NCBI GenBank assembly: GCA_965230905.1
Contig: OZ246396.1
Span: 570,001 to 602,000 of the forward strand
DNA length: 32,000 nt
DNA from: Candidatus Saccharimonadota bacterium
Lineage (GTDB): Bacteria; Patescibacteriota; Gracilibacteria; UBA1369; 2-02-FULL-48-14
Direction: 5' to 3'
The translations under genes were made by a program, and so were the position numbers. Shown piece after piece: positions 4,951-32,000 of this stretch. Under the pieces are notes generated by a model. The model made no database searches, was not told where the DNA came from, and saw only the letters and a list, made by a program, of their open reading frames with translations. Positions within the stretch are counted from its first letter, which is position 1. Each line of letters begins with the position of its first letter.

Positions 4951-4952
4951 GC

Positions 4953-5380: not shown

Positions 5381-5432
5381 GGAGTCAAATAATGGCTCAA
5401 GAAAGCCGTTTTGGTTTTAAAAGTTCCTAGGC

Positions 5433-5438: not shown

Positions 5439-5444
5439 GCCACC

Positions 5445-10991: not shown

Positions 10992-12329
10992 TCACTCACA
11001 ATTCGCCACTTCTGCTAAATCTTGGAAGACCGCTTGGTAGTCTTCATCGCCAAAGGGTGCTTCGGTGTAGGTCCATAGGAAGAGGCCGAGGGAGCCGGGC
11101 ACTTTGAGGAGCTGCTCGCCGTAGTCGCGGATTTCTTCAGGGCTGAGCACGCCGCTGTCTTCGTCGCCATTGGTGATATTGAGGCCCCAAATGGAGTCCA
11201 CGCCTAGCGCGTCCGCCGCTTCGAGGTTGCTTTCAATGTAGTCGTCGAGTTCACCTTTGCGTTCGGTGTACTGGTTGAGCGTCGCGTCTAAATCGCCATA
11301 GTCGCCGCTGGGCATATCGTCCGCATCGTGGCGGAAGAAAGTTTTTATTTTGGGGAAGAGGTCTTTGCTGTATTCAGCCATTTCTGCGAGTTCTTGCGCC
11401 GTCGGGTTTTGGCCGCCAAACTCATTGTCGAAGGTGTCGACGTCGTCCAGCATCATGTGCCACTCAAGCTCCTCTCCCGCAAAGGCGTCTAGGCTGGGGT
11501 CGTCCCACAAACTGACCAGATTTTTCCAAGTGCTGAGGCTAAAGTTCCCGCTGCTGTCCACCAGCACGCCGTTCCCGCCGGACATGCGAAAAGCGGCGCT
11601 GAGACCCGCTTCCTGCACCGCTGGCAGTTGAGTGTTCACGGCGTAGTTGGGAGAGGTGGCGACTATGAATGCATTCATGCCGGTGGAGTCCGCCATGTCT
11701 TCGTAGTCGCTTGTTATGCCCCAAAACCCAAAGAGCTGCTCTTCGCAGGCCTCAAGGATCTCTTCATCTTCGTCTGCCTCTTCTTCGAGAGTGAGATTAT
11801 AAATCAGCTGAGCCATTTCCCCTCGGGTCAGCTCGTGGGAGGGGTCGCGTGAAACGCTGTCGAGCAGGTCTAGATCCTGCGCCGCTTCATAGTAGGGTTC
11901 GTACCAAAGCTCGTAGCAGCTTTTGCAGGTGGAAATCTGGTAGGTTTCGAGCAATACTTTCAGGGCCTCTGCCAAATTGATTGGGTTGGCGGGTTTGAAG
12001 GTGCCGTCACTATAGCCGTCGACAATATTTAGGTCGTGGGCGGTGCACACGTATTTTGCGTACCAATCCGCGCTTACGTCGGGGAAGCAGTGGGAGCCTT
12101 CCGATTCGCCGGGGTATTTTGCTTCCATCAAGACCTTTACAAATTCCGCTCGGTTGATGGACTTAGTGGGTTGAAAAGTTCCGTCGGAATAGCCTTCGAT
12201 GATGCCGGCTTCCTCCAATGCCTCGATGGCCGGTTCGTTTTCGGAATGGGAAACATCGCTGAAAGCCGCAGCTAGCGGAATGCACACAAGACTGGCACAT
12301 AGAAATTCCAGGAATCTAGTGATTTTCAT
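10992..12329 (-). CDS. Secreted SLH-domain protein with uncharacterised C-terminal domain
   Basis: 445 aa with a signal peptide. Two SLH repeats (FSDVSHSENEPAIEALEEAGIIEGYSDGTFQPTKSINRAEFVKVL; FPDVSADWYAKYVCTAHDLNIVDGYSDGTFKPANPINLAEALKVL). An acidic linker and a roughly 250-aa domain of unknown family follow. Confidence 0.85.
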   Translation of the reverse strand: MKITRFLEFLCASLVCIPLAAAFSDVSHSENEPAIEALEEAGIIEGYSDGTFQPTKSINRAEFVKVLMEAKYPGESEGSHCFPDVSADWYAKYVCTAHDLNIVDGYSDGTFKPANPINLAEALKVLLETYQISTCKSCYELWYEPYYEAAQDLDLLDSVSRDPSHELTRGEMAQLIYNLTLEEEADEDEEILEACEEQLFGFWGITSDYEDMADSTGMNAFIVATSPNYAVNTQLPAVQEAGLSAAFRMSGGNGVLVDSSGNFSLSTWKNLVSLWDDPSLDAFAGEELEWHMMLDDVDTFDNEFGGQNPTAQELAEMAEYSKDLFPKIKTFFRHDADDMPSGDYGDLDATLNQYTERKGELDDYIESNLEAADALGVDSIWGLNITNGDEDSGVLSPEEIRDYGEQLLKVPGSLGLFLWTYTEAPFGDEDYQAVFQDLAEVANCE

Positions 12330-12433: not shown

Positions 12434-13894
12434 ATGAAAAGACCTTATCTACTGCTGATTTCCCTGGTGAGTTTTCTGTTTGTGCCTGAGGCCCTTGCCT
12501 TTACGGATGTGGGCTTGCAAGACGATCAAGACGCTATTGAATATTTGTTTGAAGAAGACATTGTGGACGGTTATAGCGATGGCACGTATAGGCCACGGAA
12601 TCCCATCAACCGTGCGGAGCTTTTAAAGATTTTAGTGGAAAGCCGGGTGAACACGGTGCCGAATGACGAGGATTGTTTTAAGGATGTTGCCGAAGATTGG
12701 TTTGCGCCCTATGTTTGCTATGCCAAGGAGGAAGGGTGGGTGGAAGGTTATTCCGACGGAACTTTTAAACCGGGTAATAATATCAACCGGGCGGAGGCCA
12801 TTGCTATGACTTTTAAAGTTTATGCGGACGAGCTGGATTTTTTGGATATTGAAGACGGGGAGGACTCCGTTTATTTGGATGTTTCAAATAAGGCTTGGTA
12901 CGCGGACTATTTATACACCGGAAAAGAAGCGGGGGTGCTTGCAAAAAATACTTATTTTTATCCGGGGAATGAAATCACTCGTGGGGATACTGCTTCGCTG
13001 CTCTACCGTTTGTTGAGCTCGCTGGAAGAAGAGGAGGGAGAGGTGGAAGAGGTGGAAGTGCCTGCGCCGGTGGAGATTGTTTCGGGGCAAAATCCTTTTA
13101 GCGGGGCGACTTTGTACATTGATCCTTATACGCATGCGGCCGAGGCGGGAATAGAAGCCATTGCTGGGCAGCCTATGGCGAGGTGGTTTGGGGATTGGAG
13201 CGGAGACAGTGAAGCGGCGGCGAATAAATATGTGAGCACAGTGACGGCGAGTGGGGCACTGCCGGTGATGGTGATTTACAATATTCCCGGACGGGATTGT
13301 GGAAGTTATTCGGCTGGGGGAACCGAGGATGCGGAGGAATATTTGGATTGGATACAGGGTTTTGCGAATGGGGTGGGAAGCCGCGAGGCGGTGGTGATTT
13401 TGGAACCGGATGCTTTGCCGCTGGATTGTTTGCACGCAAGTAGCGAGAGCTTGATGGGCGACGCGGTGGATATTTTAAAATCGAAGCCGGGCATTGCCGT
13501 TTATTTGGATGCGGGGCATCCCAACTGGACGCCAGTCGATGAAATGGCGGAACGACTGAAGGCCGCGAACATTGAAACGGCCGATGGATTTTCCCTCAAC
13601 GTCTCCAATTTTTATTTCACCGAAGAAAATGTTGAATTTGGTAAAGAACTCTCTGGGCTGGTGGGGAATAAGCATTTTATTGTAGACACGGGCCGGAATG
13701 GAAATGGGTGGAATGGGGAGTGGTGCAATCCTTGGGATATGAGTTTAGGCCAAAACCCCACGGTGAATACTGGCGAGGAATTGGTGGATGCGTATTTATG
13801 GGTGAAGCCGCCGGGAGAATCGGATGGAACTTGCAATGGCGGACCCAGTGCCGGAAGTTGGTGGCTGGAGTATGCGCTTGGGTTACTGAATTAA
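12434..13894 (+). CDS. Secreted SLH-domain glycoside hydrolase family 6 enzyme (cellulase-type)
   Basis: 486 aa: signal peptide, three SLH repeats, a Glu-rich linker, then a GH6 catalytic domain from about 13076. GH6 hallmarks: VIYNIPGRDCGS, VVILEPDALP, YLDAGHPNW, FSLNVSNF, YLWVKPPGESDGTC. Confidence 0.88.
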   Translation: MKRPYLLLISLVSFLFVPEALAFTDVGLQDDQDAIEYLFEEDIVDGYSDGTYRPRNPINRAELLKILVESRVNTVPNDEDCFKDVAEDWFAPYVCYAKEEGWVEGYSDGTFKPGNNINRAEAIAMTFKVYADELDFLDIEDGEDSVYLDVSNKAWYADYLYTGKEAGVLAKNTYFYPGNEITRGDTASLLYRLLSSLEEEEGEVEEVEVPAPVEIVSGQNPFSGATLYIDPYTHAAEAGIEAIAGQPMARWFGDWSGDSEAAANKYVSTVTASGALPVMVIYNIPGRDCGSYSAGGTEDAEEYLDWIQGFANGVGSREAVVILEPDALPLDCLHASSESLMGDAVDILKSKPGIAVYLDAGHPNWTPVDEMAERLKAANIETADGFSLNVSNFYFTEENVEFGKELSGLVGNKHFIVDTGRNGNGWNGEWCNPWDMSLGQNPTVNTGEELVDAYLWVKPPGESDGTCNGGPSAGSWWLEYALGLLN

Positions 13895-15630: not shown

Positions 15631-17361
15631 ATGGACAAAACCAATAACCTTTTTCTTATGAACACTTTATCTCGGATAACGGTCTCGCTTTTGGTGCTTG
15701 CTGGTTTGGCTGGCAGTGCTGTGGCGGCTACGACCATTCTTGGTTGGCCAACTACTTCGACCGTGGAAATTGGCTCCGGCGCACGTGCGCTTTATTCTGC
15801 CCTTGAACCCAGCGGGCTTGTTTGGCACAGCGGACGAAATCAGCTCATGCTAGTTGGAGACGAAGGGCAAGTGATTGCTATGGATGACGATGGAAGCAAC
15901 GCAAGCTTGTGGACGGTTTCCGGCGATTTAGAAGACATCACCGTGGTGGATCCGACTTCCAACTACGTTTATTTGGCGGATGAAGATGGTTCGATCAAAA
16001 AATACAATCTATCCACTCGCGCTGTTACGCAGACCTGGAGTGTGACCACGTGGATGCCGGAGCTAACATGTCCAAGTGGAAGTGGAACCTGTGGAATGGA
16101 GGCGCTCACCTATGCGGATGGTTATTTTTACGCGGGTTACCAGTACAACGGGAAAATTTTCAAACTGGATTTGAGTGGCACCACCGCCGTTAAAAAAGCT
16201 GAGTACACGGGATATTCCGCTAGCAGCACTGACATTTCTGGCCTGACTTATAAAGATGGCTACTTGTACGCCCTTTACAGCGACACTTTGGTGATTATGG
16301 ATTTGAGTGGAAATATTAAGACGGCTTACAATGTTCCCAACAGCGACCAGGAGGGAGTGGCGATTGGCGAAGACAGCAATGACGATGGAGATGCTAATAT
16401 CTTTATTGGAGAAGATGGGTCAAAAAAAATTTACAGCTACGACAATTTCCCCATTTATGGATGGACGGCGCCAGTGGTAGTTACCGATCCTGATACCGAT
16501 GGCGATGGAGTAGTGGATTCCTTGGATTGCAGCGACAGCGATGCCAGTGTGCACACGATGGCTACTTTCTATACCGATGCGGACAGCGACGGTCTGGGAT
16601 CTGATGCTGCGGCTTCTTTCTGCGCGGTGAGTGCACCAGCTGGGTATTCTAGCAATTCCAACGACAGCAATGATTCCATTCCCAATGCGGGTGTGGAGAT
16701 TTCCGAAGACGGCGTGGACAACGATGGAGATGGAAAAACGGATGAGGCTAATTTAGGAAGCGAGGGGCTCCACCCTTATTACGGAGCTTTGAACGCCAAT
16801 GTGAATTCAGTCGGAAAAATAACTGGATTCTGGGGGCTTCAGTATGGACAAGTTGGCGTACGCTATGCAGATGGATCGGTGTATCGCTACCGACCTTTTA
16901 GTGTATCGACTCGCACGGTAGCCACTGTGAAGGCCATTTATGGAACCGCGTACTTCACCGTTACTTTGAACGGCAGCACGGTGTACATGAATGGGTACAC
17001 GGGAGCGGTGGGTTCTTATACGCCAAACACCCGTACGGAAATTTATAATGACGGAGTGGATAATGACTTGGATGGACTCGTGGATGAGCACAGCACCACT
17101 CTTTCTAACGGCCTTCACCCCAACTACGGTGTTTTAGATCCTGCGACTTCCGCTAAGAATAAAATCGTCGGATTCTGGGGTCTTAAGAACGGGGCAATTG
17201 GAGTGCGTTATGCCGATGGATCGGTGTACCGCTACGAAGCTTTTGATGTTCAAAGCGAAACCTTTAGCACCGTGACTCAAGTTCCTGGCACGGCTTACCT
17301 CACGGTTACTTTGAACGGTAGCTCGGTGACTATAAATGGTTACAATGGAACGGTTCGTTAA
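15631..17361 (+). CDS. Secreted protein: beta-propeller-like N-domain, Asp-rich metal-binding-type linker, duplicated C-terminal module
   Basis: 576 aa with signal peptide ...LAGLAGSAVA|A. The N-terminal half has the SdiA-regulated/YjiK-like propeller flavour (SGLTYKDGYLYALYSD...DQEGVAIGED). The middle has DTDGDGVVDSLDCSDSD...YTDADSDGLG motifs. The C-terminus is a tandem duplication. Confidence 0.7.
   Translation: MDKTNNLFLMNTLSRITVSLLVLAGLAGSAVAATTILGWPTTSTVEIGSGARALYSALEPSGLVWHSGRNQLMLVGDEGQVIAMDDDGSNASLWTVSGDLEDITVVDPTSNYVYLADEDGSIKKYNLSTRAVTQTWSVTTWMPELTCPSGSGTCGMEALTYADGYFYAGYQYNGKIFKLDLSGTTAVKKAEYTGYSASSTDISGLTYKDGYLYALYSDTLVIMDLSGNIKTAYNVPNSDQEGVAIGEDSNDDGDANIFIGEDGSKKIYSYDNFPIYGWTAPVVVTDPDTDGDGVVDSLDCSDSDASVHTMATFYTDADSDGLGSDAAASFCAVSAPAGYSSNSNDSNDSIPNAGVEISEDGVDNDGDGKTDEANLGSEGLHPYYGALNANVNSVGKITGFWGLQYGQVGVRYADGSVYRYRPFSVSTRTVATVKAIYGTAYFTVTLNGSTVYMNGYTGAVGSYTPNTRTEIYNDGVDNDLDGLVDEHSTTLSNGLHPNYGVLDPATSAKNKIVGFWGLKNGAIGVRYADGSVYRYEAFDVQSETFSTVTQVPGTAYLTVTLNGSSVTINGYNGTVR
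16699..17358 (+). repeat. Intragenic tandem duplication (about 114 aa + 106 aa) in the 576-aa protein
   Basis: Repeat 1 (16699..17040): ISEDGVDNDGDGKTDE...GLHPYYGALN...GFWGLQYGQVGVRYADGSVYRYRPF...GTAYFTVTLNGSTVYMNGYTG. Repeat 2 (17041..17358): IYNDGVDNDLDGLVDE...GLHPNYGVLD...GFWGLKNGAIGVRYADGSVYRYEAF...GTAYLTVTLNGSSVTINGYNG. Confidence 0.85.
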
Positions 17362-23744: not shown

Positions 23745-24503
23745 ATGACGGTTTTCATGGGAGTTCTCAATGTGACGCCGAATAGTTTCTCTGATGGAGG
23801 GCGTTTTAAGGAGCACGGCGGTGCGGATGATGTGGTGAAGGTTGCTTTGGAAATGCTGGCGGACGGCGCGGAGATTTTAGATATTGGGGGGGAGTCCACA
23901 GGGCCGGGGAGCACGGACGTTACGGTGGAAGAAGAGTTGGCGCGGGTGATCCCGGTGATTCAGCGGATTCGGGCGGCGGCGCCGGATGCTATTCTTTCTA
24001 TAGATACCTGGAAAAGTGAGGTGGCGGAGGCGGCTTTGCGCGCGGGTGCGAACTGGGTGAATGATGTGACGGCGGGCCGGGGCGATGAGCGGATTTTTGA
24101 GGTGGCGGCGAAGGCGGGTGCGCCCATGGTTCTGATGTATTCTAAGCAAAATAGCCCGCGCACGGACCGTGAAATGGTGCAGTACGACGATGTGATGAAA
24201 ACCGTGAAGGATTTTTTACGCGAGCGGGTGGCGCTGGCGCTGGCGGCAGGAGTGAAAGAGATTATTGTGGACCCGGGGATGGGAGCTTTTGTGAGCGGGG
24301 AGCCGGCCTATAGCTTTGAGATTTTGGAGCGCATTGAAGAGTTGCGCGAGTTGGGTTGTCCGATTCTGGTTGGAACCTCACGGAAGGGCTTTTTAGGGGA
24401 CGACCGTTTGGGCATGACGCTGCTCACGACTTTGCAGCTGGCTGGACGCGTGGATTATTTGCGTGTGCACGATGTGACGGAGAATGCTACGGCTACTGAC
24501 TAA
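23745..24503 (+). CDS. folP: Dihydropteroate synthase
   Basis: VFMGVLNVTPNSFSDGGRF...ILDIGGESTGPG...ILSIDT...WVNDV...VVLMY...IIVDPGMGAF...ILVGTSRKGF...YLRVHDV is a canonical pterin-binding DHPS. Confidence 0.93.
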   Translation: MTVFMGVLNVTPNSFSDGGRFKEHGGADDVVKVALEMLADGAEILDIGGESTGPGSTDVTVEEELARVIPVIQRIRAAAPDAILSIDTWKSEVAEAALRAGANWVNDVTAGRGDERIFEVAAKAGAPMVLMYSKQNSPRTDREMVQYDDVMKTVKDFLRERVALALAAGVKEIIVDPGMGAFVSGEPAYSFEILERIEELRELGCPILVGTSRKGFLGDDRLGMTLLTTLQLAGRVDYLRVHDVTENATATD

Positions 24504-25045
24504 GATTTTAGATAATCTTTTTCAAGCAGTAAAAACTTTTCTTCGGAAAATTGATAAATGCCAATTACAATTTGTTCCCCAGTTTTTTCTTGTTCGAGTA
24601 GTACCAACTCTTTGCAGTCGAAAAGTATTGTTGGGAAATCGTTCATGTCACACGAGGCAATATACAGGCCTGAATCCCGATAGTGCTTTGCTTCTGCCCA
24701 GATGACACTGTCCACCAGGGAGATTTTCCCTGAATGATTTTTACATTTAGAATAGTAAACTGAAGAAAGGTGACACGCTTCATCGATTAGGTTTTGTCTT
24801 TCAGGAGGAAGCTGAGTTAAATTCGTAAGTCCGTTGAGCAATTCCTCTTTTACTTTTTTGGAATTTTGACTGTTGGCTCCTCGTAGGAATTCAGCTTTGA
24901 TGTAGGCATTGATCGTTAGATTCACTTGTAGTGACTCTAGTCTGTTCAAAAAAACAGTCATACTTTTAAAGTACGACTCCTGTGACATATAAGCCAGAAC
25001 GTTTGTATCTAGTAAGAGACTTTTATTTTCTAAAAAATCGATCAT
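24500..25045 (-). CDS. PIN-domain protein (VapC-like toxin candidate) with C-terminal extension
   Basis: The internal ATG at 25045 gives MIDFLENKSLLLDTNVLAY (first acidic PIN residue). Later residues: IKAEFLRG (Glu), ISLVDSVIWAEAKHY (Asp), IASCDMNDFP (Asp). 181 aa, about 33-37% GC by hand count. The track ORF extends to 25147. Confidence 0.72.
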   Translation of the reverse strand: MIDFLENKSLLLDTNVLAYMSQESYFKSMTVFLNRLESLQVNLTINAYIKAEFLRGANSQNSKKVKEELLNGLTNLTQLPPERQNLIDEACHLSSVYYSKCKNHSGKISLVDSVIWAEAKHYRDSGLYIASCDMNDFPTILFDCKELVLLEQEKTGEQIVIGIYQFSEEKFLLLEKDYLKS

Positions 25046-25178
25046 AGTAAGGTTCTTCTGCCATCTGTTTACTGGCTTTTTTAACGACGCTCTCCATAAG
25101 CTTTGCATCCCAAACCACGCCTTTTTTTTGTCTAAAAAAGTTTTCACTGCGTTCTGCTAGCTTGTCTTTTGTCTGCAT
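25023..25178 (-). CDS. Candidate 51-aa antitoxin-position ORF upstream of the PIN gene
   Basis: Reverse-strand ATG at 25178 gives MQTKDKLAERSENFFRQKKGVVWDAKLMESVVKKASKQMAEEPYYDRFFRK*. It overlaps the PIN start by 23 nt in another frame. No recognisable antitoxin fold motif, and it is below the ORF-track cut-off. Confidence 0.3.
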   Translation of the reverse strand: MQTKDKLAERSENFFRQKKGVVWDAKLMESVVKKASKQMAEEPYYDRFFRK

Positions 25179-25274
25179 TGCTGGAAGATTAATAACACTC
25201 TCATTTTAAGCTAATTTTTCCCAAAAGCCAGCCTTCTATTTTGCTTGAAACTTGTTTGATGGTCTATATCTCCC

Positions 25275-25280
25275 TATAAT
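25275..25280 (+). promoter_or_regulatory. -10 hexamer TATAAT 8 nt upstream of the PTPS ATG (possible leaderless or near-leaderless transcript)
   Basis: TTGTTT (25252..25257), a 17-nt spacer, TATAAT (25275..25280), then gctcgtct-ATG (25289). No SD motif. Confidence 0.35.
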
Positions 25281-25288
25281 GCTCGTCT

Positions 25289-25636
25289 ATGTTCGTTTCC
25301 AAAGACTTCACTTTCGACTCGGCGCACTTCCTGACTAAATATCATGGCAAGTGTGAAAACCTGCACGGGCATACTTATAAGTTGCGTGTGACGGTGGAAG
25401 GGCCGGTGGGCGAGGATGGGATGGTCATCGATTTTAAAGAGCTCAAAGCGCTCGTGAAGGACAAGGTTATTGATCGCTATGATCACCAAAACTTGAACGA
25501 CTTTTTTGAAAATCCCTCTGCAGAACTCGTGGTGATGAAGATTTGGGAAGATTTGGCGCTCGAGCTGCCGGTGAAACTTTATGAGATCACCCTGTGGGAA
25601 ACGGCGGAGAGTTTTGTTACTTACCGCGGCAACTGA
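25289..25636 (+). CDS. 6-pyruvoyl-tetrahydropterin synthase family protein (COG0720; QueD/PTPS-III type)
   Basis: 115 aa. FTFDSAHFLTKYHGKCENLHGHTYKLRVTVEG...VIDFKELK...DHQNLN is the PTPS/QueD fold with Zn-binding His residues. The active-site motif reads C-E-N-L-H-G-H. It sits between folP and folK. Confidence 0.9.
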   Translation: MFVSKDFTFDSAHFLTKYHGKCENLHGHTYKLRVTVEGPVGEDGMVIDFKELKALVKDKVIDRYDHQNLNDFFENPSAELVVMKIWEDLALELPVKLYEITLWETAESFVTYRGN

Positions 25637-26130
25637 TGCACATATTCTTAGGACTTGGAACCAACTTGGGCGACCGTGAAATGAATCTGGTTACGGCCAG
25701 GGATCTTTTGATGAAACACGACGTTTTGGTAGTGGGGCAGAGCAGTGTACTGGAAACGGCGCCGCTGGGTGGGCTGGACCAGCCGATGTATTTGAATCAG
25801 GTGGTGGAGTGCATAACGGAGCTCAGCCCGCAGGATTTATTTGTGGCCTGCAAAACCGTGGAAAGGGAAATGGGCCGCGAGACGAGTGTGCCGATGGGGA
25901 ATGTGGCGTTTGGCAGTGGGCAGAAGACGCCGTCGAAGTGGACGAGTCGAATCATCGACATAGACATTATTTTTTACGGAGAATGGATTGTGAATGAGCC
26001 GCAGCTTACTATTCCGCATGCCCGGCTCACGGAGCGGGATTTTGTGGTCGAAGGGGTTTTGGAACTTTCCCCAGACTTTGTCCATCCGCTTTTGAAAAAG
26101 CCGTTGAAAGCCCTGCGCCCTCAGGCATAA
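25636..26130 (+). CDS. folK: 2-amino-4-hydroxy-6-hydroxymethyldihydropteridine diphosphokinase (HPPK)
   Basis: The internal ATG at 25636 overlaps the PTPS TGA by 1 nt (TGATG). MHIFLGLGTNLGDR...SSVLETAPLGGLDQPMYLNQVV...EREMGRE...RIIDIDIIFYG...LTIPHARLTERDFVVEGVLEL is the HPPK pattern. Confidence 0.9.
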   Translation: MHIFLGLGTNLGDREMNLVTARDLLMKHDVLVVGQSSVLETAPLGGLDQPMYLNQVVECITELSPQDLFVACKTVEREMGRETSVPMGNVAFGSGQKTPSKWTSRIIDIDIIFYGEWIVNEPQLTIPHARLTERDFVVEGVLELSPDFVHPLLKKPLKALRPQA

Positions 26131-26137: not shown

Positions 26138-26890
26138 ATGAATCCTAGACAACGCGAACTTCGGCTCGAAGCGCTCGAGCTCATTTCAAGAATGGGTGAG
26201 GGGAGTAGTGGACGCATGCTTTCGTCTATTGATTTGATTGAGGGGCTGTATTTTGGCGAAGAAAACGGGCGGCAGATTTTTAAGCACAATCCCAAAATGC
26301 CGCAGTGGGAAGAGCGTGATTATTTTGTCCTGTCTAAGATTGAGGCCTTGCCCGGTCTGCACGCGGTTTTGCAAAAAGCCGGGTACACCCTGCCGGAGGT
26401 TTTGCCGTTTTTCCCGAACCGAAAAGTGCCCGGGGTGGAGGTGACTACGGAGGAGCACGCGTATGGAATTTGCACGGCGGTGGGCATGGCGCAGGCCATA
26501 CAAATCAGCCGCCTGAACCAGCACGTGTTTTGTTTGGTGGGCGATTATGAACTGGATCATGGGCGGGCTTGGGAAGCGATACTGACGGCGGCGGAACGCA
26601 AGCTCGACCGGCTCTGTTTGATTCTTGATGAAAACAATCCCAATGACTATTTGTGGCAAGAACGCTTTGAGTCATTTGGCTGGAAAGTCATTAAGCTGCG
26701 CGACGCACACGACCACGATGAAATTGTCTACGGCTACATGAAAGCACGGCTTACTTTGCGGAAACCAACGTGCATTTGGGCGCCCACCAAAAAGTCCGCC
26801 GGCATTCCATTCGCGGAACGAAAAGGCGAATACGACGATGTGATTTTTTCCGACATGGAAATGCAAGAAATTCGAACCCTACTCGTATGA
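26138..26890 (+). CDS. Transketolase N-terminal-subunit-like protein with degenerate catalytic motifs
   Basis: 250 aa, colinear with split-transketolase N subunits (…ERDYFVLSK…PGVEV…GMAQA…VGDYELDHGRAWEA…LILDENN…FGW…). The conserved His/Gly positions are replaced: GEGSSGRMLS for GSGHPGGSLS, SKIEALP for SKGHAAP, GDY for GDG. It starts 7 nt after folK. Confidence 0.72.
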   Translation: MNPRQRELRLEALELISRMGEGSSGRMLSSIDLIEGLYFGEENGRQIFKHNPKMPQWEERDYFVLSKIEALPGLHAVLQKAGYTLPEVLPFFPNRKVPGVEVTTEEHAYGICTAVGMAQAIQISRLNQHVFCLVGDYELDHGRAWEAILTAAERKLDRLCLILDENNPNDYLWQERFESFGWKVIKLRDAHDHDEIVYGYMKARLTLRKPTCIWAPTKKSAGIPFAERKGEYDDVIFSDMEMQEIRTLLV

Positions 26891-27234
26891 TGCTGGATAT
26901 AAAACTCACTCAGCTCGGACTCAAAATTAAGAACCTCGTGGTACTCGATCTTACATTTCCCGCAGGCAAGTTTCCTGAGTTTAAAAAAGCTTATGATCAG
27001 CGTTACATTCACTTGGCCGGCCGCAAGGAAATGGCACTCGCGTTTGCGGGTGGGCTCAGTGCGTTTGGCAAAATTGTGCTTATTTATGGAATGGATAGCG
27101 ATGAGTGTGAGGTGCCCGACAGGACGTTGAATATTAAGCTCGTGGAAGAGGGCGTGGAGGGGACGTGGGAGATTTTTGAGGAGGAACTCAAGGCCTTTGG
27201 CCCTGCCGTTCTATTGATTCCTGAGGAAGTTTGA
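26887..27234 (+). CDS. Truncated transketolase C-terminal-subunit-like protein (115 aa)
   Basis: The internal ATG at 26887 forms an ATGA overlap with the upstream gene. LGLKIKNLVVLDLTFPAGKFPEFKKAYDQRYIHLAGRKEMALAFAGGLSAFGKIVLIY parallels the Pyr-domain start of split transketolases (…VVLDADL…F…P.RF…GIAEQNM…AAGLA..GK…). The protein is about one third of the normal length. Confidence 0.6.
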   Translation: MMLDIKLTQLGLKIKNLVVLDLTFPAGKFPEFKKAYDQRYIHLAGRKEMALAFAGGLSAFGKIVLIYGMDSDECEVPDRTLNIKLVEEGVEGTWEIFEEELKAFGPAVLLIPEEV

Positions 27235-27341
27235 GCGCGAACTTTTGACTACACCGTAAATAGGGTGTTCGGTCGAGCGGAAGTAGTTCCCTTCCAGGAG
27301 CTTTTTCTGTAGAATTTTCCTGCTTTAATTAAATCCACACA

Positions 27342-30300
27342 ATGAAATTTCTGGCACGCTGCTTTACTCATATACTTTTTGCTCTAGCGCTTTCTTTGTT
27401 CAGCGCAAGCATCGCCTCTGCGGCTGTGCGCACCTGGGATGGTGGGGGTTCTACGAACAACTGGAGTGAAGACGCAAACTGGTCCGATAATACCGAACCA
27501 GGAACCGGCGACGTCGCAACATTTGATGCTACGTCCACAAAGGCTGCAACCATTGATATCACGATTAGCGTTGGAGGGGTTGATATCAATACCGGATACA
27601 GTGGAACCATCACGCAAAGTGCGGCGTTGACGGTGGGTGGATCGAACTACGACCAAGCGGACGGAATTTTTACGGGTGGGAGTGCATCAGTGACATTTAA
27701 TGGAACATTTACACTTACAGGCGGTACCTTTACGCAAACAACGGGAACGACCACATATGCCGGAAGTTTTGCGCATAATACTGGCGGTACGTTTACTCAT
27801 AATTCCGGAACGTCAAAATTTACCGTATTCAGTGGTACGATAAACATCTCAGCAGCTTCTGCGGGTACGGAAACATTTGGGACGTTTACACTCGAAATCG
27901 ACCATAATAACTGTCTTTCCGTTGCCAGCGGTGACACGATTATTATCGCAGGAGACATGACCATTGTGAATGGTAACCTTTGTACGGGCACTGTTGAAAT
28001 TAAGGGAAATATTACCTGGGGAGCTGCCTCTGACGGTGCTGGAACTGATACGAATTTGCGTATTACCGGTACGGGGGATCAGACGATTACTTCCACGAGC
28101 GGTGCGAGCTTTCGTGGAACACACACTATTGATAAGGTGAGTGGAAATGTGTATTTGGGTTCGAACTATAGCCTGACTTCCGGAGCATTTGTGTTAACCA
28201 ATGGAACGTTTTATGCGCGTAATTCTGCAAACACAAATAATTATTCATTAACAAGTATAGGGAGCTATTCCCAGTCAGGTGGTACGTTTAACGGCGGATC
28301 TTCTACAATTTCTCAAGGAGGCTATACCACGTTTACGCTCTCGGGAGGTACGTACAGCCAGTCCAGCGGAACGACAACTTATGGCGGTAGTGGGTGGACA
28401 CATACGGCTGGTGGAACGTTCACTCACAATTCTGGTACAAGTTCATTTATTAACGGAAACGGTACGTTTAACGTTGATAATACGACTGGAGAGACATTTT
28501 ATCACCTCACTCTTTCTGCTTCGGGCGACAACAACGACAATAAAACCATTACTTCTGGCGACAAGCTTATTGCTGAGGGTAACGTCACTATTGATCAGGG
28601 GAGTTTTGATACGGGAACTTTGGAAGTTCGTGGGAACCTCACGTTGGGGTCGGGGGCGGACGATTCAAGCGCTCTCTTTAAGATTAATGGAACAGGCGAT
28701 CAAACCATCACTAAAAGCGGTGGTACGTTGAGTGGAGGCGTGACCGTAGATAAGGCAAGTGGCAGCGTGTATCTTGGTGCAAACTTTTCTTTGTCGAGTG
28801 CTTTTATCCTTACGAGTGGAACGATGTATTTGCGTGATTCCGGTGCAGTGACGAACTACTCGATGACATTGACCAGTACCTACTCTCAAGGAGGTGGAAC
28901 AATGAATACCGGTTCTTCGGCATTTTCTGTATCGGGGGCGTTTTCTCAGACAAGCGGTACGTTTAACGGAGGATCTTCCACGGTTGGGCATACGGGCACA
29001 TTCTCACTTTCTGGTGGCACGTACAGTCAATCCACGGGCACAACAACCTATGGAAGCACCTTTACACATACTGCTGGAGGAACATTTACGCATAATTCCG
29101 GAACAAGTTTGTTTAGCGGTTCGTCGTCGAGCATTGACGTTGGGACAACAGAAACGTTTGGTCATTTAACGATTAGTTTGACGGGGGGCCAAACAAAAAC
29201 GGTTGCTAACAGCACCACATTGATTGTTTCTGGTACCCTCACACTCACTGATGGAAGTGTTTCGCAGACAACGATTCCGACCGCAGGAACCATTTCTGCA
29301 CAAGGGAACGTTGTGGGCGCTTCTACGTATGACGGCGGTACGGGAAAACTCATTTTCTCCGGATCTGCAACGCAGACATTCGACCTTACTGGCGCGGCAG
29401 GCGTGTATAACGGAGATATTGCGGTGAATAAAGCGGGTGGTGCGGTTAACTTGCTTACTGCCCTAACCATGGATGCGAGCGGTCAAGATTTGGTTATTGA
29501 AGAAGGTACGTTTGATGTTTCTGGGTTTACGCTTTCGGTAACTGGCGCAGGAACGGAGACGATCATTGTGGAAACGGGAGGAAATCTCCAATTACAGGGC
29601 GGCGAAACCATTACGGGCGATAGCGCGAGCTACCCACAGTTAAATTCTGGATCAACGGTCACCTATGACGGTACATCTACCCCATACACACTCAAGGACT
29701 ACACCTACCATCACCTCACCATTGCGGGTGGAGCATCATCAGTATTTACGCTTGCCGCGAATGAATCACTTGGTGGAAACCTCACGTTAACCACGGGCAT
29801 TCTCTCGCAAGGTGGTTTCACGCTTGCGGTTACGGGAACGTTCAGCAATGACTCAACACTTCGTCGGTTCCAAAATGAAACGCTCACGGTAACCATGGAC
29901 ATCAACTCGGGTACCATTGAGTATGTGGGTGATGGAGATGGCAGCGCCGAAACGGTAACTCTTGCGGATCTAGGAACAACCGATTACTACAATCTCAAAA
30001 TTAATGACACCAATGTTACAAAAGATATTTTCGCGCTTGGAGCTGCGACGGTGATTGCGGGAACCTTGCAAGTCACCAGCTCAGAATTCCAGCAAGGTTT
30101 ATACGACCTAACAGCAGTGACGCTTCTTGTTGACGGCGGTACGCTTACCGGGAGTTCTTCCAGCTCATTCGTAATAACGGTATCGGGCAATGCGACGATT
30201 TCCTCAGGAACGGCCAATATCGGGGCTGCGGCAATAGATGTTTTTGGAACGCTCACCATTTCGGGCGGTACATATAACGGGAATACGTCTTGGGGACAAA

Positions 30301-32000
30301 TCATCAACCTTGCGCTTTCTTCGGGTGCCTACAATGGGAATACCTCAACGCCGACTCTTATTTTCGTCACGATTTCGGGCGGTACGTTCACGGCATCGTC
30401 TGCTACCACCACTGTGGGTGGAGACTGGACGCACACGGCTGGTGGAACGTTTGTTCATAACTCAGGAACGGTGGCCTTTACGGGAGGGGGCGCAAACATC
30501 AACGTTACAGAAACGGAAACCTTCTCGGGACTCACCATCAGTAAAGATGATAATACTCTAACGATCGCTTCTGGTGACACGCTGGTAGCAGAGGGAACAC
30601 TCACGTTGAGTAATGGCTATTGGCAAACGGGAACACTCGTTGCACAAGGAAACATTGTGGTGGGTGCTAGCTGGGATGCTGCAGGAGCTAGCACATTAAA
30701 CGTGACCGGAAGCGCGACACAAACACTTGACCTTTCCGCAGGTGCAGGACTGCTCGATAATCCTGTTACAGTGAACAAGGCTGGCGGAAGTCTTACTCTT
30801 GCCTCTGCCTACACGCTCGACCATGCGAATGCAGACTTTACGCTCACGCTCGGCACTTTCTCCACGGGCAACTTTACGATGACCACATCATCAGGATCAG
30901 ATATCGCGGTGAATGGCGGTACGTTCAACGCAGGTTCTTCCACCATGACTCTTGCAGGATTGATGACGGTTGCTGGCGGTACCTACAACGGTAACACCTC
31001 TTCCGGGACTACTTCTGGCGCCTTCCTTCTTTCGTCAGGTGCCTACAACGGCAACACTTCAACCCCAACATTCTCGGGAGGTCTCACTATTTCTGGTGGA
31101 GTGTTTACTGCAAGTTCAGGAACCATGACCGTGTCTGCGAATTTTGCTCACACGGCAGGAACCTTCACTCATAACTCAGGAACGGTTGCGTTCAACAACT
31201 CCGGAGTCACTTCTACTATTTCCGGGGACAGCACTTTCTATAATTTCACTTCCACTACGGCAAACAAACCCATCACCTTCACAGCAGGAACCACGCAAAC
31301 CGTTTCTGGATTACTCACGCTCACGGGAACTTCTGGCAATTTGATTGTTCTCCGCAGCACCGTTACGGACAGTGTTTGGAATTTGAATGTTTCCGGGACC
31401 AGTTCAGTGGATTATGTGAACGTTCGTGACTCCAATGCAGCCGGGGGAAATGCAATCACCCATGCGGTCGCCGCATCCAGGTCTGTTAACGTAGCGAACA
31501 ATACTAATTGGAGCTTCAATGCGGCGCCTACGGTGGCCACGGTTACGGCTGTACAAAGCAGCGCTGGAGATGGAGACATTACGATTACTTTCATCATGGA
31601 CGACCCAGACGATGACAACACTCTTCAGGGGAAAGTGGAATACAGTTTGAACGGAGGAAGCAGCTGGGCAGACCCTACTATCAGCACGACTGGCAGTGAA
31701 ACGTCTGCCACTTTTGGCGACCCTTCGGTGAGCAATGCAGCGACCTACCAAGTGGGACAAAGCGGTGCGTATATTTTAAGCTCCAGCGGCGCTAACACGG
31801 TTACTATTGTGTGGGAGTCTGCAACGGACATCGCCAGCTCTACTGATATTTCTAATGCTCGTATTCGTATTACGCCTTACGATGGCGTTGCGGAAGGCAC
31901 CGCCTCCAGCAGTTCCAACTTTACTTTAGATCGCGTTGGGCCAAGCGGACTTGCAAACTTTAGACATACCGATTTCTCAAATAGTCAGGTGGTTTTGTCT
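27342..32000 (+). CDS. Giant secreted Thr/Gly/Ser-rich beta-helix-type repeat protein (Pmp-like GGxF/FxxN motifs), 3'-truncated by the window edge
   Basis: Read codon by codon: ATG at 27342, then 1553 sense codons with no stop to position 32000. This is why it is missing from the ORF track. Signal peptide MKFLARCFTHILFALALSLFSASIASA|A is followed by VRTWDGGGSTNNWSEDANWSDNTEPGTGDVATFD. The motif (F/W)xHxxGGTF(T/V)HNSGT recurs five times. All track ORFs in 27368..31760 are antisense or out-of-frame shadows. Confidence 0.9.
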   Translation, partial: MKFLARCFTHILFALALSLFSASIASAAVRTWDGGGSTNNWSEDANWSDNTEPGTGDVATFDATSTKAATIDITISVGGVDINTGYSGTITQSAALTVGGSNYDQADGIFTGGSASVTFNGTFTLTGGTFTQTTGTTTYAGSFAHNTGGTFTHNSGTSKFTVFSGTINISAASAGTETFGTFTLEIDHNNCLSVASGDTIIIAGDMTIVNGNLCTGTVEIKGNITWGAASDGAGTDTNLRITGTGDQTITSTSGASFRGTHTIDKVSGNVYLGSNYSLTSGAFVLTNGTFYARNSANTNNYSLTSIGSYSQSGGTFNGGSSTISQGGYTTFTLSGGTYSQSSGTTTYGGSGWTHTAGGTFTHNSGTSSFINGNGTFNVDNTTGETFYHLTLSASGDNNDNKTITSGDKLIAEGNVTIDQGSFDTGTLEVRGNLTLGSGADDSSALFKINGTGDQTITKSGGTLSGGVTVDKASGSVYLGANFSLSSAFILTSGTMYLRDSGAVTNYSMTLTSTYSQGGGTMNTGSSAFSVSGAFSQTSGTFNGGSSTVGHTGTFSLSGGTYSQSTGTTTYGSTFTHTAGGTFTHNSGTSLFSGSSSSIDVGTTETFGHLTISLTGGQTKTVANSTTLIVSGTLTLTDGSVSQTTIPTAGTISAQGNVVGASTYDGGTGKLIFSGSATQTFDLTGAAGVYNGDIAVNKAGGAVNLLTALTMDASGQDLVIEEGTFDVSGFTLSVTGAGTETIIVETGGNLQLQGGETITGDSASYPQLNSGSTVTYDGTSTPYTLKDYTYHHLTIAGGASSVFTLAANESLGGNLTLTTGILSQGGFTLAVTGTFSNDSTLRRFQNETLTVTMDINSGTIEYVGDGDGSAETVTLADLGTTDYYNLKINDTNVTKDIFALGAATVIAGTLQVTSSEFQQGLYDLTAVTLLVDGGTLTGSSSSSFVITVSGNATISSGTANIGAAAIDVFGTLTISGGTYNGNTSWGQIINLALSSGAYNGNTSTPTLIFVTISGGTFTASSATTTVGGDWTHTAGGTFVHNSGTVAFTGGGANINVTETETFSGLTISKDDNTLTIASGDTLVAEGTLTLSNGYWQTGTLVAQGNIVVGASWDAAGASTLNVTGSATQTLDLSAGAGLLDNPVTVNKAGGSLTLASAYTLDHANADFTLTLGTFSTGNFTMTTSSGSDIAVNGGTFNAGSSTMTLAGLMTVAGGTYNGNTSSGTTSGAFLLSSGAYNGNTSTPTFSGGLTISGGVFTASSGTMTVSANFAHTAGTFTHNSGTVAFNNSGVTSTISGDSTFYNFTSTTANKPITFTAGTTQTVSGLLTLTGTSGNLIVLRSTVTDSVWNLNVSGTSSVDYVNVRDSNAAGGNAITHAVAASRSVNVANNTNWSFNAAPTVATVTAVQSSAGDGDITITFIMDDPDDDNTLQGKVEYSLNGGSSWADPTISTTGSETSATFGDPSVSNAATYQVGQSGAYILSSSGANTVTIVWESATDIASSTDISNARIRITPYDGVAEGTASSSSNFTLDRVGPSGLANFRHTDFSNSQVVLS
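27768..31184 (+). repeat. Diverged protein-level module repeats inside the giant ORF
   Basis: Anchor motif xxHxxGGTFxHNSGT at 27768..27812, 28395..28439, 29061..29105, 30426..30470 and 31143..31184, giving spacings of 209, 222, 455 and 239 aa. Secondary motifs recur in register: ETF(G/Y/S)xLT(I/L), SGD(T/K)(I/L)IAxG, (R/K)I(T/N)GTGDQTIT at 28056..28091 and 28677..28712, and DKxSGxVYLGxN(Y/F)SL. Copies differ heavily at synonymous sites. Confidence 0.85.

What the first reader, a model, noticed from the sequence alone, without database searches (positions are those of the whole stretch)
27342..32000. Unlisted 4.66-kb open frame: giant beta-helix-type surface protein hidden from the ORF track
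**Open frame.** Translating frame 27342 line by line gives 1553 consecutive sense codons up to the window edge. The track shows only short antisense or off-frame ORFs here, so this gene would be missed by anyone relying on it.

**Protein features.**
- A cleavable signal peptide (…SASIASA|A).
- An entry motif TWDGGGSTNNWSEDANWSDNTEPGTGDVATFD, which is the style that opens autotransporter-associated or PATR-type beta-strand repeat proteins.
- Five diverged modules, each built around xxHxxGGTFxHNSGT. The GGxF plus FxxN tetrapeptides resemble polymorphic-membrane-protein repeats.
- A longer third module (455 aa).
- A capping segment (…FYNFTSTTANKPITFTAGTTQTVSGLLTLTGTSGNLIVLRS…VDYVNVRDSNA…NTNWSF).
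- From about 31.5 kb, the start of Ig/Fn3-like domains.

**Age of the repeats.** Module copies share amino-acid motifs but differ at most synonymous positions (e.g. GGTGGAACGTTCACTCACAATTCTGGTACA vs GGAGGAACATTTACGCATAATTCCGGAACA). This indicates old duplication under selection rather than recent repeat expansion.

**Why it matters.** For what looks like a small-genome organism, this is a very large investment in a surface or adhesion structure, and a candidate host/partner-attachment factor.
Basis: partly seen in the sequence, partly recalled or inferred. Interest (0 to 1): 0.75.

Follow-up and report, generated by a model that had tools for sequence, protein, structure and literature searches.

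The report
Wall-anchored beta-helix surface fibre gene
The open frame is a real gene for a 1911-residue secreted, rod-like surface protein tethered to the cell wall of a tiny-genome groundwater bacterium; it is probably an attachment fibre, belongs to a common but uncharacterised class, and is already in public databases under a generic name.

Summary
Window 27342-32000(+) is 1553 sense codons running off the window edge, which is the only reason the ORF list omits it.

The full gene is 1911 aa on a 99.94%-identical groundwater contig. It matches NCBI MEK9159597.1, named 'S-layer homology domain-containing protein', on a 1.307-Mb Patescibacteria (Peregrinibacteria-lineage) contig.

Architecture:
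- Sec signal peptide.
- About 1360 aa of parallel beta-solenoid (AlphaFold pLDDT 89), built from five old ~210-aa modules.
- A conserved, mostly single-copy ~210-aa core inside 'module 3'.
- A cap and two FnIII-like domains.
- A disordered Ser/Gly/Glu linker and a C-terminal SLH wall anchor.

Pfam and NCBIfam models for Pmp, PATR, autotransporter, TPS, Beta_helix and fn3 do not match. The module is unmodelled yet occurs in 3553 protein clusters.

Against a close relative, the cell-proximal third is mostly 72-91% identical, like the housekeeping neighbours. Most of the distal array is only 30-50% identical, and the gene sits in a different slot of a collinear block.

Most likely it is a wall-anchored adhesin-like fibre. 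An S-layer lattice subunit is the main rival. It is a new member of a known kind, of moderate interest.

The parts
27342..27422 (+). Sec-type signal peptide, aa 1-27, with predicted cleavage at ASA|A
   Evidence: K2/R6 n-region, hydrophobic core at residues 7-20, and A25-S26-A27. The AlphaFold model shows an N-terminal helix 3-19 with low pLDDT. No SignalP run was possible.
27432..27638 (+). N-terminal entry/cap of the solenoid, aa 31-99, including TWDGGGxxNWxxxxNW...P...D.ATFD
   Evidence: W32, W41, N46, W47, P53, D57 and F61 are at least 90% conserved across 30 homologs. pLDDT is about 90 from residue 30 on.
27639..28265 (+). Beta-solenoid module 1 (aa 100-308)
   Evidence: Self-comparison and module alignment; motif at aa 145.
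28266..28931 (+). Beta-solenoid module 2 (aa 309-530)
   Evidence: 51% identical to module 1; motif at aa 354.
28932..29408 (+). Beta-solenoid module 3, repeat-like part (aa 531-689)
   Evidence: Aligns with the other modules; motif at aa 576.
29409..30041 (+). Conserved, mostly single-copy core (aa 690-900) embedded in the solenoid. Signature: ...LQLQGGETIT..YP.L.SGSTVTYDG..PYT.KDYTYHHLTI...MD.DSGTVEYVGDGDG...
   Evidence: It is the most conserved stretch across homologs, 50-64% mean identity to the query against 18-32% for most of the repeat modules. It is present in 139 of 213 family proteins at 45-81% identity, and 84 of the 95 with a long hit have exactly one copy. It has 17 invariant columns, including D, K, Q, E, N, D and S. 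It has no Pfam or PDB sequence match.
30042..30296 (+). Remainder of the expanded third interval (aa 901-985); variable solenoid turns
   Evidence: Low conservation and occupancy in A1; all-beta in the model.
30297..31016 (+). Beta-solenoid module 4 (aa 986-1225)
   Evidence: motif at aa 1031.
31017..31520 (+). Beta-solenoid module 5 with C-terminal cap (aa 1226-1393, ending NTNWSF)
   Evidence: Motif at aa 1270. In model mb39dccee918b the beta-solenoid strands run to about model residue 160. This region is 77% identical to P0017.
31530..31931 (+). FnIII-like domain 1 (aa ~1397-1530), with a long loop insertion
   Evidence: Beta-sandwich in the model. Foldseek matches tandem FnIII structures at E 3e-7 to 1e-5. 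Pfam fn3 is not matched by sequence.
31953..32000 (+). Start of FnIII-like domain 2 (aa ~1538-1633), cut by the window end. Beyond the window, on L001: acidic Ser/Gly/Glu linker aa 1637-1692, SLH region aa ~1695-1911, stop at L001 9222-9224
   Evidence: SLH PF00395 scores E 2e-23 with its best stretch at aa 1848-1890. The linker has pLDDT below 50.

Best explanation
The frame is the first 81% of a 1911-aa secreted cell-surface protein. The organism is a Peregrinibacteria-lineage Patescibacteria (CPR) bacterium with a genome of about 1.3 Mb.

**Proposed mechanism**
1. The protein is exported through Sec using a cleavable N-terminal signal peptide.
2. Its C-terminal SLH region (two canonical motifs plus one degenerate motif) binds non-covalently to a secondary cell-wall polymer on the peptidoglycan.
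3. A disordered poly-Ser/Gly/poly-Glu linker of about 55 residues and two FnIII-like spacers connect the anchor to the rod.
4. About 1360 residues of parallel beta-solenoid form the rod, at about 21 residues per coil with a GGTF motif in successive coils.
5. If the rod is one straight stack, it projects the N-terminus roughly 30 nm from the wall. That estimate is my inference from a rise of 4.8 A per coil.

The rod is built from five anciently duplicated ~210-aa modules. A conserved, mostly single-copy ~210-aa core is embedded in it, and I take this core to be the functional (ligand-binding) site. The repeat modules would set length and surface variability.

The most likely role is an adhesin-like fibre that mediates contact with a partner or host cell, or with a surface.

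**Shown:** the gene, the domain architecture, the fold class, the SLH anchor, family membership, and the mosaic pattern of conservation.
**Inferred:** the export route, wall binding, the rod's geometry, and the adhesion function.
For: **Gene and full length.**

**Architecture.**
- The N-terminal 1200-aa model has pLDDT 89.1 and is all-beta with a 7-residue strand period.
- GGTF recurs at profile positions 9, 29 and 50 across 1386 module instances.
- The only PDB neighbours are beta-helical adhesins and tailspikes such as EtpA, EspP, Hap, Ag43, HxuA and HK620. None is significant (best E 0.19).
- Significant matches (E down to 1.5e-10) go to long parallel-beta-helix fibres in BFVD.
- The C-terminal model shows cap, two FnIII-like domains, a disordered linker and a helical SLH region. 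SLH scores E 2e-23.

**Organism.** The neighbouring PBP2 is 100% identical to MEK9159607.1 on a 1,307,106-bp Patescibacteria contig. Its relatives are named Gracilibacteria or Peregrinibacteria.

**Use of the module elsewhere.** It occurs in 3553 clusters, combined with SLH, T9SS sorting tails, TPS domains, cadherin-like, Calx-beta and LamG domains. Sources name some of these proteins 'autotransporter adhesin' or 'filamentous hemagglutinin'.

**Evolutionary pattern typical of exposed interaction proteins.**
- Against the relative's P0017, aa 1300-1911 is 60-91% identical per 100-aa window (72-91% outside the linker), while most of aa 100-1300 is 30-50% (aa 701-800, inside the core, is 78%). 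The housekeeping neighbours are mostly 77-93% identical.
- The gene occupies a different slot in a collinear block.
- There are at least two paralogs in the same genome.

**Literature.** Peribacteria and related CPR genomes encode large exported proteins and multiple SLH proteins that are proposed to mediate attachment (PMC4736985; PMC13059738).
Against: - There is no experimental or expression evidence, and no ligand is known.
- No curated adhesin family matches by sequence.
- I could not inspect the model coordinates. Handedness, straightness and whether the modules form one continuous stack are therefore unverified. pTM is only 0.63.
- A conserved anchor with a variable exposed part is equally typical of true S-layer proteins.
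- Beta-helix S-layer proteins exist, and S-layer proteins have been predicted in Patescibacteria (bioRxiv 10.1101/2024.05.28.596244).
- I did not check for the pyruvyltransferase CsaB or for the wall polymer.
- The first SLH motif is degenerate; Pfam reports only two stretches.
Confidence: 0.5

Rival explanations
1. It is the structural S-layer protein itself, or one of several. The beta-helical body would tile into the 2-D lattice that covers the cell, held on the wall by the SLH region. The variable distal part would reflect antigenic or phage-driven variation of the lattice surface.
For: - It has an SLH anchor.
- Its composition is T/G/S/N-rich with 0.2% Cys, typical of S-layer proteins.
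- Beta-helix S-layer proteins are described as a widespread bacterial class with interchangeable anchors, and S-layer proteins of 1131-1264 aa are predicted in Patescibacteria.
- Peribacteria genomes are reported to carry S-layer genes.
- A conserved anchor with a variable body is a classic S-layer pattern (my own knowledge, for example Campylobacter fetus Sap).
Against: - The same module is used with many unrelated anchors and secretion routes across phyla.
- Module number and protein length change between close relatives (1451, 1568 and 1911 aa), which is hard to reconcile with fixed lattice contacts.
- There are at least two paralogs per genome.
- A flexible 55-residue disordered linker plus two FnIII spacers suggests a tethered projecting element rather than a tightly registered lattice.
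- None of this is decisive.
Confidence: 0.25
2. It is a wall-anchored, tailspike-like glycan-binding or glycan-degrading protein. The conserved core in the middle of the solenoid would be a catalytic or carbohydrate-binding groove, used to recognise or digest the envelope polysaccharide of a host or environmental polymers.
For: - The core is far more conserved than the surrounding repeats. It retains invariant D, K, Q, E, N, D and S and near-invariant R, E and Y residues in a protein otherwise poor in charged residues.
- Fold neighbours include tailspike depolymerases, PL6 alginate lyase and phage pectate-lyase-like fibres.
- A GH6 enzyme with SLH domains lies in the same window.
- SLH plus beta-helix plus Ig-like is the architecture of the surface enzyme ChiW (PMC5132251).
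- Giant proteins of predatory bacteria are proposed to combine adhesion with wall digestion.
Against: - No CAZy-type Pfam or NCBIfam family, PHROG or PDB sequence matches the core or the modules.
- The PDB fold matches to enzymes are not significant (E > 3).
- The beta-helix of ChiW itself (CBM54) had no detectable carbohydrate-degrading activity.
- Invariant polar residues may simply be structural or bind Ca2+.
Confidence: 0.15
3. It is a passive spacer or protective coat protein, acting as a hydrophilic Thr-rich 'fur', ice- or mineral-binding surface, or phage decoy, with no specific ligand.
For: - It is 17.8% Thr and 12.9% Ser, giving flat T-rich solenoid faces.
- There is a weak fold match to the beta-helical region of an antifreeze adhesin, 3p4g.
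- The organism lives in groundwater.
Against: - The conserved, mostly single-copy core argues for a specific function.
- The 3p4g match is not significant (E 1.7).
- T/S/G/N richness is generic for beta-helical surface proteins.
Confidence: 0.07

Closest known systems
SLH-anchored multi-modular cell-surface proteins of monoderm bacteria, for example Paenibacillus ChiW (SLH x3, CBM54 right-handed beta-helix, Gly/Ser loop, Ig-like domains; PMC5132251) and Bacillus anthracis S-layer-associated (BSL) proteins
   Same: It is a secreted protein held on the wall by SLH repeats. It combines a parallel beta-helix, a flexible Gly/Ser-rich linker and Ig/FnIII-like spacers.
   Different: - The SLH region is C-terminal here, so the order is inverted.
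- The beta-helix is about 1360 aa rather than about 235 aa.
- There are no recognisable catalytic domains and no CBM54 match.
- The linker carries a long poly-Glu tract.
Fibrillar beta-helical adhesins of diderm bacteria: two-partner-secretion exoproteins (FHA, EtpA, HMW1) and autotransporter passengers (pertactin, Ag43, Hap, Chlamydia Pmp, PATR proteins)
   Same: It is a long parallel beta-solenoid built from diverged repeats and exposed on the cell surface. These proteins are its only PDB fold neighbours. Some homologs of the module carry a TPS domain or are named autotransporter adhesin or hemagglutinin by their sources.
   Different: - It has no TPS domain and no beta-barrel translocator.
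- There is no match to the Pmp or PATR repeat models.
- Anchoring is by SLH to a wall polymer rather than through an outer membrane.
Beta-helix S-layer proteins (RsaA-type lattice formers with interchangeable anchoring domains; bioRxiv 10.1101/2024.05.28.596244)
   Same: It has a large beta-helical body plus a separate anchoring module. Its composition is low in Cys and rich in Thr/Ser, and S-layers are reported for CPR cells.
   Different: - No sequence relationship was tested or shown.
- The modular repeat number varies between close relatives.
- Tandem FnIII domains and a long disordered tether lie between body and anchor.
Phage and giant-virus parallel-beta-helix tail fibres and tailspikes (Peptidase S74-domain fibres, HK620 tailspike)
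   Same: These give the best fold-level matches, with BFVD E down to 1.5e-10. They share the idea of a rod with a functional site along or at the end of the helix.
   Different: There is no sequence-level match to any PHROG, no S74 chaperone domain, and TM-scores are only 0.1-0.27. The protein is cellular and wall-anchored.

Membership tests
SLH-domain cell-wall-anchored proteins (Pfam PF00395) | One or more (typically three) SLH motifs matching PF00395 above the gathering score | tested here: met
   In full-length P0001, PF00395 scores E 2e-23 and 82.5 bits against a cut-off of 20.8, in 2 stretches, the best at aa 1848-1890. There is a weak PDB match to SLH chains 8bz2, 6bt4 and 3pyw. A third, degenerate motif is inferred by eye at aa ~1705-1765. 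This part lies outside the window.
SLH-domain cell-wall-anchored proteins (Pfam PF00395) | Binding to pyruvylated secondary cell-wall polymer, with CsaB present in the genome | not tested
   Only about 60 kb of the 1.3-Mb genome was read, and no PS_pyruv_trans hit was seen among the window ORFs scanned. The binding itself cannot be tested with these tools.
Secreted (Sec/SPI) proteins | N-terminal signal peptide with n-, h- and c-regions and an AxA cleavage site | tested here: met
   K2/R6, hydrophobic stretch at residues 7-20, and A25-S26-A27|A28. This is a heuristic check only; SignalP was not available.
Chlamydial polymorphic membrane protein repeats (Pfam PF02415 Chlam_PMP; TIGR01376) | Match to the Pmp repeat model (alternating GGA[ILV] and FxxN motifs) | tested here: not met
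   No hit at E <= 1 to 10 in Pfam or NCBIfam. The GGTF-x-HN motif only resembles it superficially.
Autotransporter-associated beta-strand repeat (PATR, Pfam PF12951 / TIGR02601) | Match to the PATR repeat model | tested here: not met
   No hit in Pfam or NCBIfam at permissive thresholds. The N-terminal W..GG...NW....NW motif resembles PATR-protein N-termini only from memory.
Type V secretion: autotransporters and two-partner secretion exoproteins | C-terminal beta-barrel translocator (PF03797), or N-terminal TPS domain (PF05860) | tested here: not met
   Neither domain is in the full-length protein, and the C-terminus is SLH. Some distant homologs of the module do carry PF05860.
Right-handed parallel beta-helix (pectate-lyase-like) fold | Predicted or solved structure is a parallel beta-solenoid similar to known beta-helix proteins | tested here: met
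   The model has pLDDT 89.1 and regular short strands. All 22 PDB matches are beta-solenoid-type or Gly-rich all-beta proteins, mostly beta-helical adhesins and tailspikes, though all have E >= 0.19. There are 14 BFVD matches at E <= 1e-3 to parallel-beta-helix fibres. Handedness was not checked because no coordinates were available. Pfam Beta_helix is not matched by sequence.
Fibronectin type III domains (Pfam PF00041) | Seven-stranded beta-sandwich matching fn3 | tested here: inconclusive
   There is no PF00041 hit by sequence. The model of aa ~1397-1633 matches tandem FnIII structures at E 3e-7 to 1e-5, and homologs P0010, P0013 and P0042 carry PF00041.
S-layer lattice-forming proteins | Self-assembly into a 2-D paracrystalline lattice, as the dominant envelope protein | not testable with these tools
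   This requires cryo-ET, proteomics or multimer modelling with planar symmetry.

The most novel reading that the evidence does not exclude
The conserved, mostly single-copy ~210-aa core (aa 690-900; window 29409-30041) is the 'warhead' of a tailspike-like cellular fibre. It would be a receptor-binding or glycan-cleaving site embedded in a beta-helical rod, and a family of CPR episymbionts would use it to recognise or open the envelope of partner cells. The flanking repeat modules and the gene's chromosomal position would turn over rapidly under host or phage pressure. This would define a new, widespread functional domain, present in most of the closest family members and unmodelled in Pfam, NCBIfam and the PDB. 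It would also give a concrete molecular handle on CPR-host attachment.
Probability: 0.12. Interest if true: 0.7.

Novelty: new member of a known kind. Interest (0 to 1): 0.35.

Why it matters
Most CPR/Patescibacteria are thought to live attached to other cells, yet the molecules that make contact are largely unknown. This gene takes about 0.44% of a 1.3-Mb genome and has the architecture expected of a contact fibre: wall anchor, flexible tether, spacers and a long rod.

Three results are practically useful:
- The ~210-aa repeat module is widespread (3553 clusters at 50% identity) but absent from Pfam and NCBIfam, so such proteins are systematically under-annotated.
- A conserved core inside the rod is a defined target for expression and binding or activity assays.
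- The conserved base, variable rod and slot relocation mark the gene as fast-evolving, making it a candidate determinant of strain-level host range.

None of this is surprising for the field. Large exported and SLH proteins of Peribacteria and related lineages have been noted since 2016.

Tried and rejected
**Sequence libraries.**
- Pfam and NCBIfam scans of the window ORF and of the full-length protein found only SLH. The GH95_C, PPP4R2, Myc_N, Nop14 and TIGR00927 hits are sub-threshold noise or poly-Glu low complexity.
- PHROGs gave nothing.
- PDB sequence searches found only weak SLH hits for the whole protein, a short weak match to the beta-helical FwdC subunit for the module profile (E 0.007), and nothing for the core profile.
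- A Pfam scan of 18 core sequences returned only scattered noise.

**Fold searches.**
- Foldseek against the PDB with the 1200-aa model gave no significant hit, though all hits were beta-helical.

**Ideas tested and dropped.**
- Syntenic ortholog among the 47 GTDB loci: none shares the flanks. The positional relative was found instead through the PBP2 neighbour.
- Programmed variation or recent repeat expansion: there are no DGR-like repeat pairs and no tandem DNA repeats.
- RNA elements: only tRNA-Trp.
- A promoter upstream of the gene: none matches the sigma-70 consensus, and the one terminator-like hairpin at 27285-27302 is at chance level.
- The two His residues of the motif as a catalytic or metal site: each is below 60% conserved across 1386 modules.
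- Contact-dependent toxin delivery: there is no TPS domain and no C-terminal toxin; the C-terminus is the anchor.
Full report
**1. Observation**

Translating window 27342-32000 on the + strand gives 1553 codons without a stop. An in-frame stop lies at 27330, and the ATG at 27342 is the first start after it. By my own arithmetic, the chance of such a frame in random sequence is about (61/64)^1553, roughly 4e-33. The frame is missing from the ORF list only because that tool does not list ORFs that run off an end of the source (and the tool description). Being 'hidden' therefore has no biological meaning.

The motif HxxGGTFxHNSGT occurs at aa 145, 354, 576, 1031 and 1270, and the last copy lacks one G. 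Self-comparison shows repeats with a period of about 206-239 aa and 32-51% identity between copies. The third interval is expanded to 455 aa.

Between module copies, four-fold degenerate sites under identical amino acids carry the same base in 15-38% of cases. Codon usage alone predicts 28.6%, so synonymous sites are saturated and the duplications are old. No tandem DNA repeats or long near-identical repeats exist in the gene.

**2. The complete gene and its owner**

A protein 100% identical over the whole query but 1911 aa long (P0001) is encoded on a 13.5-kb contig from Hainich groundwater well H51, 0.2 µm filter fraction. That contig is 99.94% identical to the window over 8147 nt.

The other member of its 90%-identity cluster is NCBI MEK9159597.1, 'S-layer homology domain-containing protein', on a 1,307,106-bp contig labelled Patescibacteria group bacterium. 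The neighbouring PBP2 in the window is 100% identical to MEK9159607.1 on that same contig. Its next relatives (79-81% identical) are named Gracilibacteria, and more distant ones Peregrinibacteria.

Genomic relatives of the giant protein are mostly Peregrinibacteria, Peribacteria and Gracilibacteria MAGs. The ORFs are intact under genetic code 11. The 'small-genome organism' inference is therefore right, and the gene is about 0.44% of the genome.

**3. Architecture**

| Region (aa) | Feature | Evidence |
|---|---|---|
| 1-27 | Sec-type signal peptide: K2/R6, hydrophobic 7-20, A-S-A\|A | (heuristic; SignalP not available) |
| 28-~1393 | All-beta solenoid | AlphaFold2, 30-sequence alignment, aa 1-1200: mean pLDDT 89.1, pTM 0.63, short strands every ~7 residues, no low-confidence linkers between modules |
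| ~1226-1390 | Last solenoid module and cap | second model, aa 1226-1911, pLDDT 82.9 |
| ~1397-1530 and ~1538-1633 | Two beta-sandwich domains | match tandem FnIII structures at Foldseek E 3e-7 to 1e-5 |
| 1637-1692 | Disordered poly-Ser/Gly then poly-Glu segment | pLDDT below 50 |
| ~1695-1911 | Helical SLH region | Pfam SLH E 2e-23, two stretches; by eye, two canonical SLH motifs preceded by a degenerate one |

Across 1386 module instances in 214 homologs, the strongest signature is G-G-T-F at profile positions 9, 29 and 50. That is one motif per ~21-residue coil.

By fold, every PDB neighbour is a beta-solenoid-type protein, mostly beta-helical: EtpA, EspP, IgA1 protease, Hap, Ag43, HxuA, HK620 tailspike and an antifreeze adhesin region. 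None is significant, with the best at E 0.19. Against predicted viral structures, 14 matches reach E <= 1e-3 (best 1.5e-10). They include S74-domain tail-fibre proteins and a protein annotated 'parallel beta-helix repeat', from phages and giant viruses.

I could not inspect coordinates. Handedness, straightness and the ~30 nm length (about 63 coils at 4.8 Å rise) are therefore my inferences.

**4. What the sequence libraries say**

- Pfam and NCBIfam contain no model that matches the solenoid. Chlam_PMP, PATR/TIGR02601, Beta_helix, autotransporter, TPS, Big and fn3 all fail at permissive thresholds.
- PHROGs gives nothing.
- PDB sequence searches give only weak SLH matches and a short weak match to the beta-helical FwdC subunit.
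- Yet a profile of the five internal modules finds 3553 cluster representatives at E <= 1e-3 (1858 at <= 1e-10, 602 at <= 1e-30) among 1.84 billion. Some proteins have up to 40 matched stretches.
- In homologs the module is combined with SLH, T9SS sorting tails (PF18962), TPS domains (PF05860), cadherin-like, Calx-beta, LamG, FG-GAP and FecR domains. Some source names are 'fibronectin-binding autotransporter adhesin' or 'filamentous hemagglutinin family protein'.

The module is thus a generic extracellular building block that curated libraries do not yet cover.

**5. A conserved core inside the 'long third module'**

Conservation along the protein is uneven.
- Most of the repeat modules average 18-32% identity to the query in the 30-sequence alignment.
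- Residues ~650-900 average 50-64%.
- The segment aa 690-900 is found in 139 of 213 family proteins at 45-81% identity.
- Of the 95 proteins with a long hit, 84 have exactly one copy.
- An 18-sequence alignment has 17 invariant columns, including D, K, Q, E, N, D and S, plus near-invariant R, E and four Y. The protein overall has only 1-2% each of E, K and R.
- The core matches nothing in Pfam or PDB sequences.

I regard it as the best candidate for the functional site, but whether it binds, cleaves or merely stabilises is open.

**6. Evolutionary behaviour**

In a relative whose PBP2 is 84% identical (GCA_040960315.1, locus L049), the housekeeping block DUF2339-PBP2-M16-NDK-folP-PTPS-HPPK-tktN-orf-prs-rpiB-rpe is collinear with the window plus L001. 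Protein identities there are mostly 77-93%.

That genome's giant SLH gene (P0017, 1451 aa) lies between folP and PTPS. In the window the gene lies between tktN/orf115 and prs, and the folP-PTPS slot holds only an unassigned 215-aa antisense ORF.

Identity of P0001 to P0017 per 100-aa window:

| Region (aa) | Identity |
|---|---|
| 1-100 | 58% |
| 101-700 | 30-51% |
| 701-800 (core) | 78% |
| 801-1300 | 33-46% |
| 1301-1911 | 60-91% (the lowest value falls on the acidic linker) |

Another relative (L003) has an SLH tail 85% identical to this one, but a ~39%-identical rod and Calx-beta domains in place of FnIII. It sits at a different, conserved locus next to a PilB/PilT-type ATPase, as does L050. 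The same 1.3-Mb genome carries at least one paralog, P0033 (1347 aa, with SLH and the core), elsewhere.

Overall the pattern is a conserved base, a conserved core, fast-changing or rearranged rod modules, mobile chromosomal position and paralogy. This is what is expected of an exposed interaction protein under diversifying pressure. It is equally seen in S-layer proteins.

**7. Mechanism and rivals**

*Best explanation (0.5).* The protein is a Sec-exported fibre whose C-terminal SLH region binds the wall polymer. A flexible acidic tether and two FnIII spacers then carry a long beta-solenoid rod outward. The conserved core, and perhaps the tip, contacts a partner cell or surface.

This agrees with published views. 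Peribacteria invest in large exported proteins 'that may function in attachment' and carry S-layer genes (PMC4736985). In related episymbiotic Patescibacteria, 8-10 SLH proteins and surface proteins over 1500 aa are considered candidates for host contact (PMC13059738).

*Rivals.*
- **S-layer lattice subunit (0.25).** Beta-helix S-layer proteins with swappable anchors are common, and S-layer proteins are predicted in Patescibacteria.
- **Tailspike-like glycan-binding or depolymerase protein (0.15).** This is suggested by the conserved polar core, the enzyme-type fold neighbours, the SLH-GH6 neighbour and ChiW-like architecture. No catalytic family matches.
- **Non-specific coat, ice- or mineral-binding surface (0.07).**

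**8. Comparison and verdict**

The protein works like the fibrillar beta-helical adhesins of diderm bacteria, but it is not a member of the Pmp, PATR, autotransporter or TPS families, whose defining domains were tested and not met. It is a member of the SLH-anchored surface proteins.

The closest solved architectural analogue is ChiW: SLH, right-handed beta-helix, Gly/Ser loop and Ig-like domains. Here the order is inverted, the helix is far longer and there are no catalytic domains.

It is a new member of a known kind, already deposited under a generic name. Interest is moderate. Its value lies in the unmodelled widespread module, the conserved core as an experimental target, and the mosaic, relocating evolution. 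No principle here is new.

Noticed in passing
window 12434-13894 (+) and 10992-12329 (-): Two more SLH proteins are arranged divergently. One is a GH6 (cellulase-family) catalytic domain with three SLH motifs (GH6 E 6.6e-58, SLH E 1.5e-30). The other is a 445-aa protein with N-terminal SLH. Their SLH-coding parts appear as inverted repeat 12145-12197 / 12743-12795. A wall-anchored GH6 in a CPR bacterium is worth a look in its own right.
   Followed up: partly
window 29409-30041 (aa 690-900 of the giant protein): This is a conserved, mostly single-copy ~210-aa core embedded in the solenoid. It is the most conserved part of the protein across homologs, present in 139 of 213 family proteins at 45-81% identity, and has no Pfam or PDB sequence match.
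   Followed up: yes
window 24504-25288, versus L049 10001-14356: In a close relative the giant SLH gene occupies the folP-PTPS slot instead of the tktN-prs slot, within an otherwise collinear block. In the window that slot holds a 215-aa antisense ORF (24500-25147) with no Pfam hit and no detectable remnant of the giant gene.
   Followed up: partly
window 15631-17361 (+): This 576-aa ORF has a weak Cys-rich MopE-like motif and an internal 345-nt (115-aa) tandem duplication: 16816-16904 with 17161-17249, and 16941-17014 with 17286-17359, at 75-77% nt identity. It is possibly one of the cysteine-rich exported proteins described for Peribacteria.
   Followed up: no
window 26138-27234 (+): Transketolase appears split. 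A 250-aa N-terminal (TPP-binding) half is followed by a 115-154-aa ORF with no Pfam hit, and the same arrangement is conserved in the relative L049. Downstream of the giant gene, on L001, lie prs, rpiB and rpe, so the surface-protein gene interrupts a pentose-phosphate/nucleotide cluster.
   Followed up: no
L003 4075-10698 and L050 3014-9458: In two related genomes a family member with an SLH tail (85% identical to this one in L003) sits immediately downstream of a PilB/PilT-type secretion ATPase and a cNMP-binding protein, and upstream of pyrH-frr-rseP. This is a second, conserved locus for the family. A possible link to type IV pili was not examined.
   Followed up: no
L051 8001-12709 (same 1.3-Mb genome): Paralog P0033 (1347 aa, with SLH and the core at 52% identity) lies between rpsL-rpsG and fusA. 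It is followed by a MazE-like/PIN toxin-antitoxin pair inserted in the str operon region.
   Followed up: no
window 4078-5957 and 23745-26130: These are cofactor genes that are notable for a CPR genome: PdxS/PdxT (SOR_SNZ, SNO) and a folP-PTPS-HPPK pterin/folate set. tRNA-Trp lies at 9466-9539.
   Followed up: no
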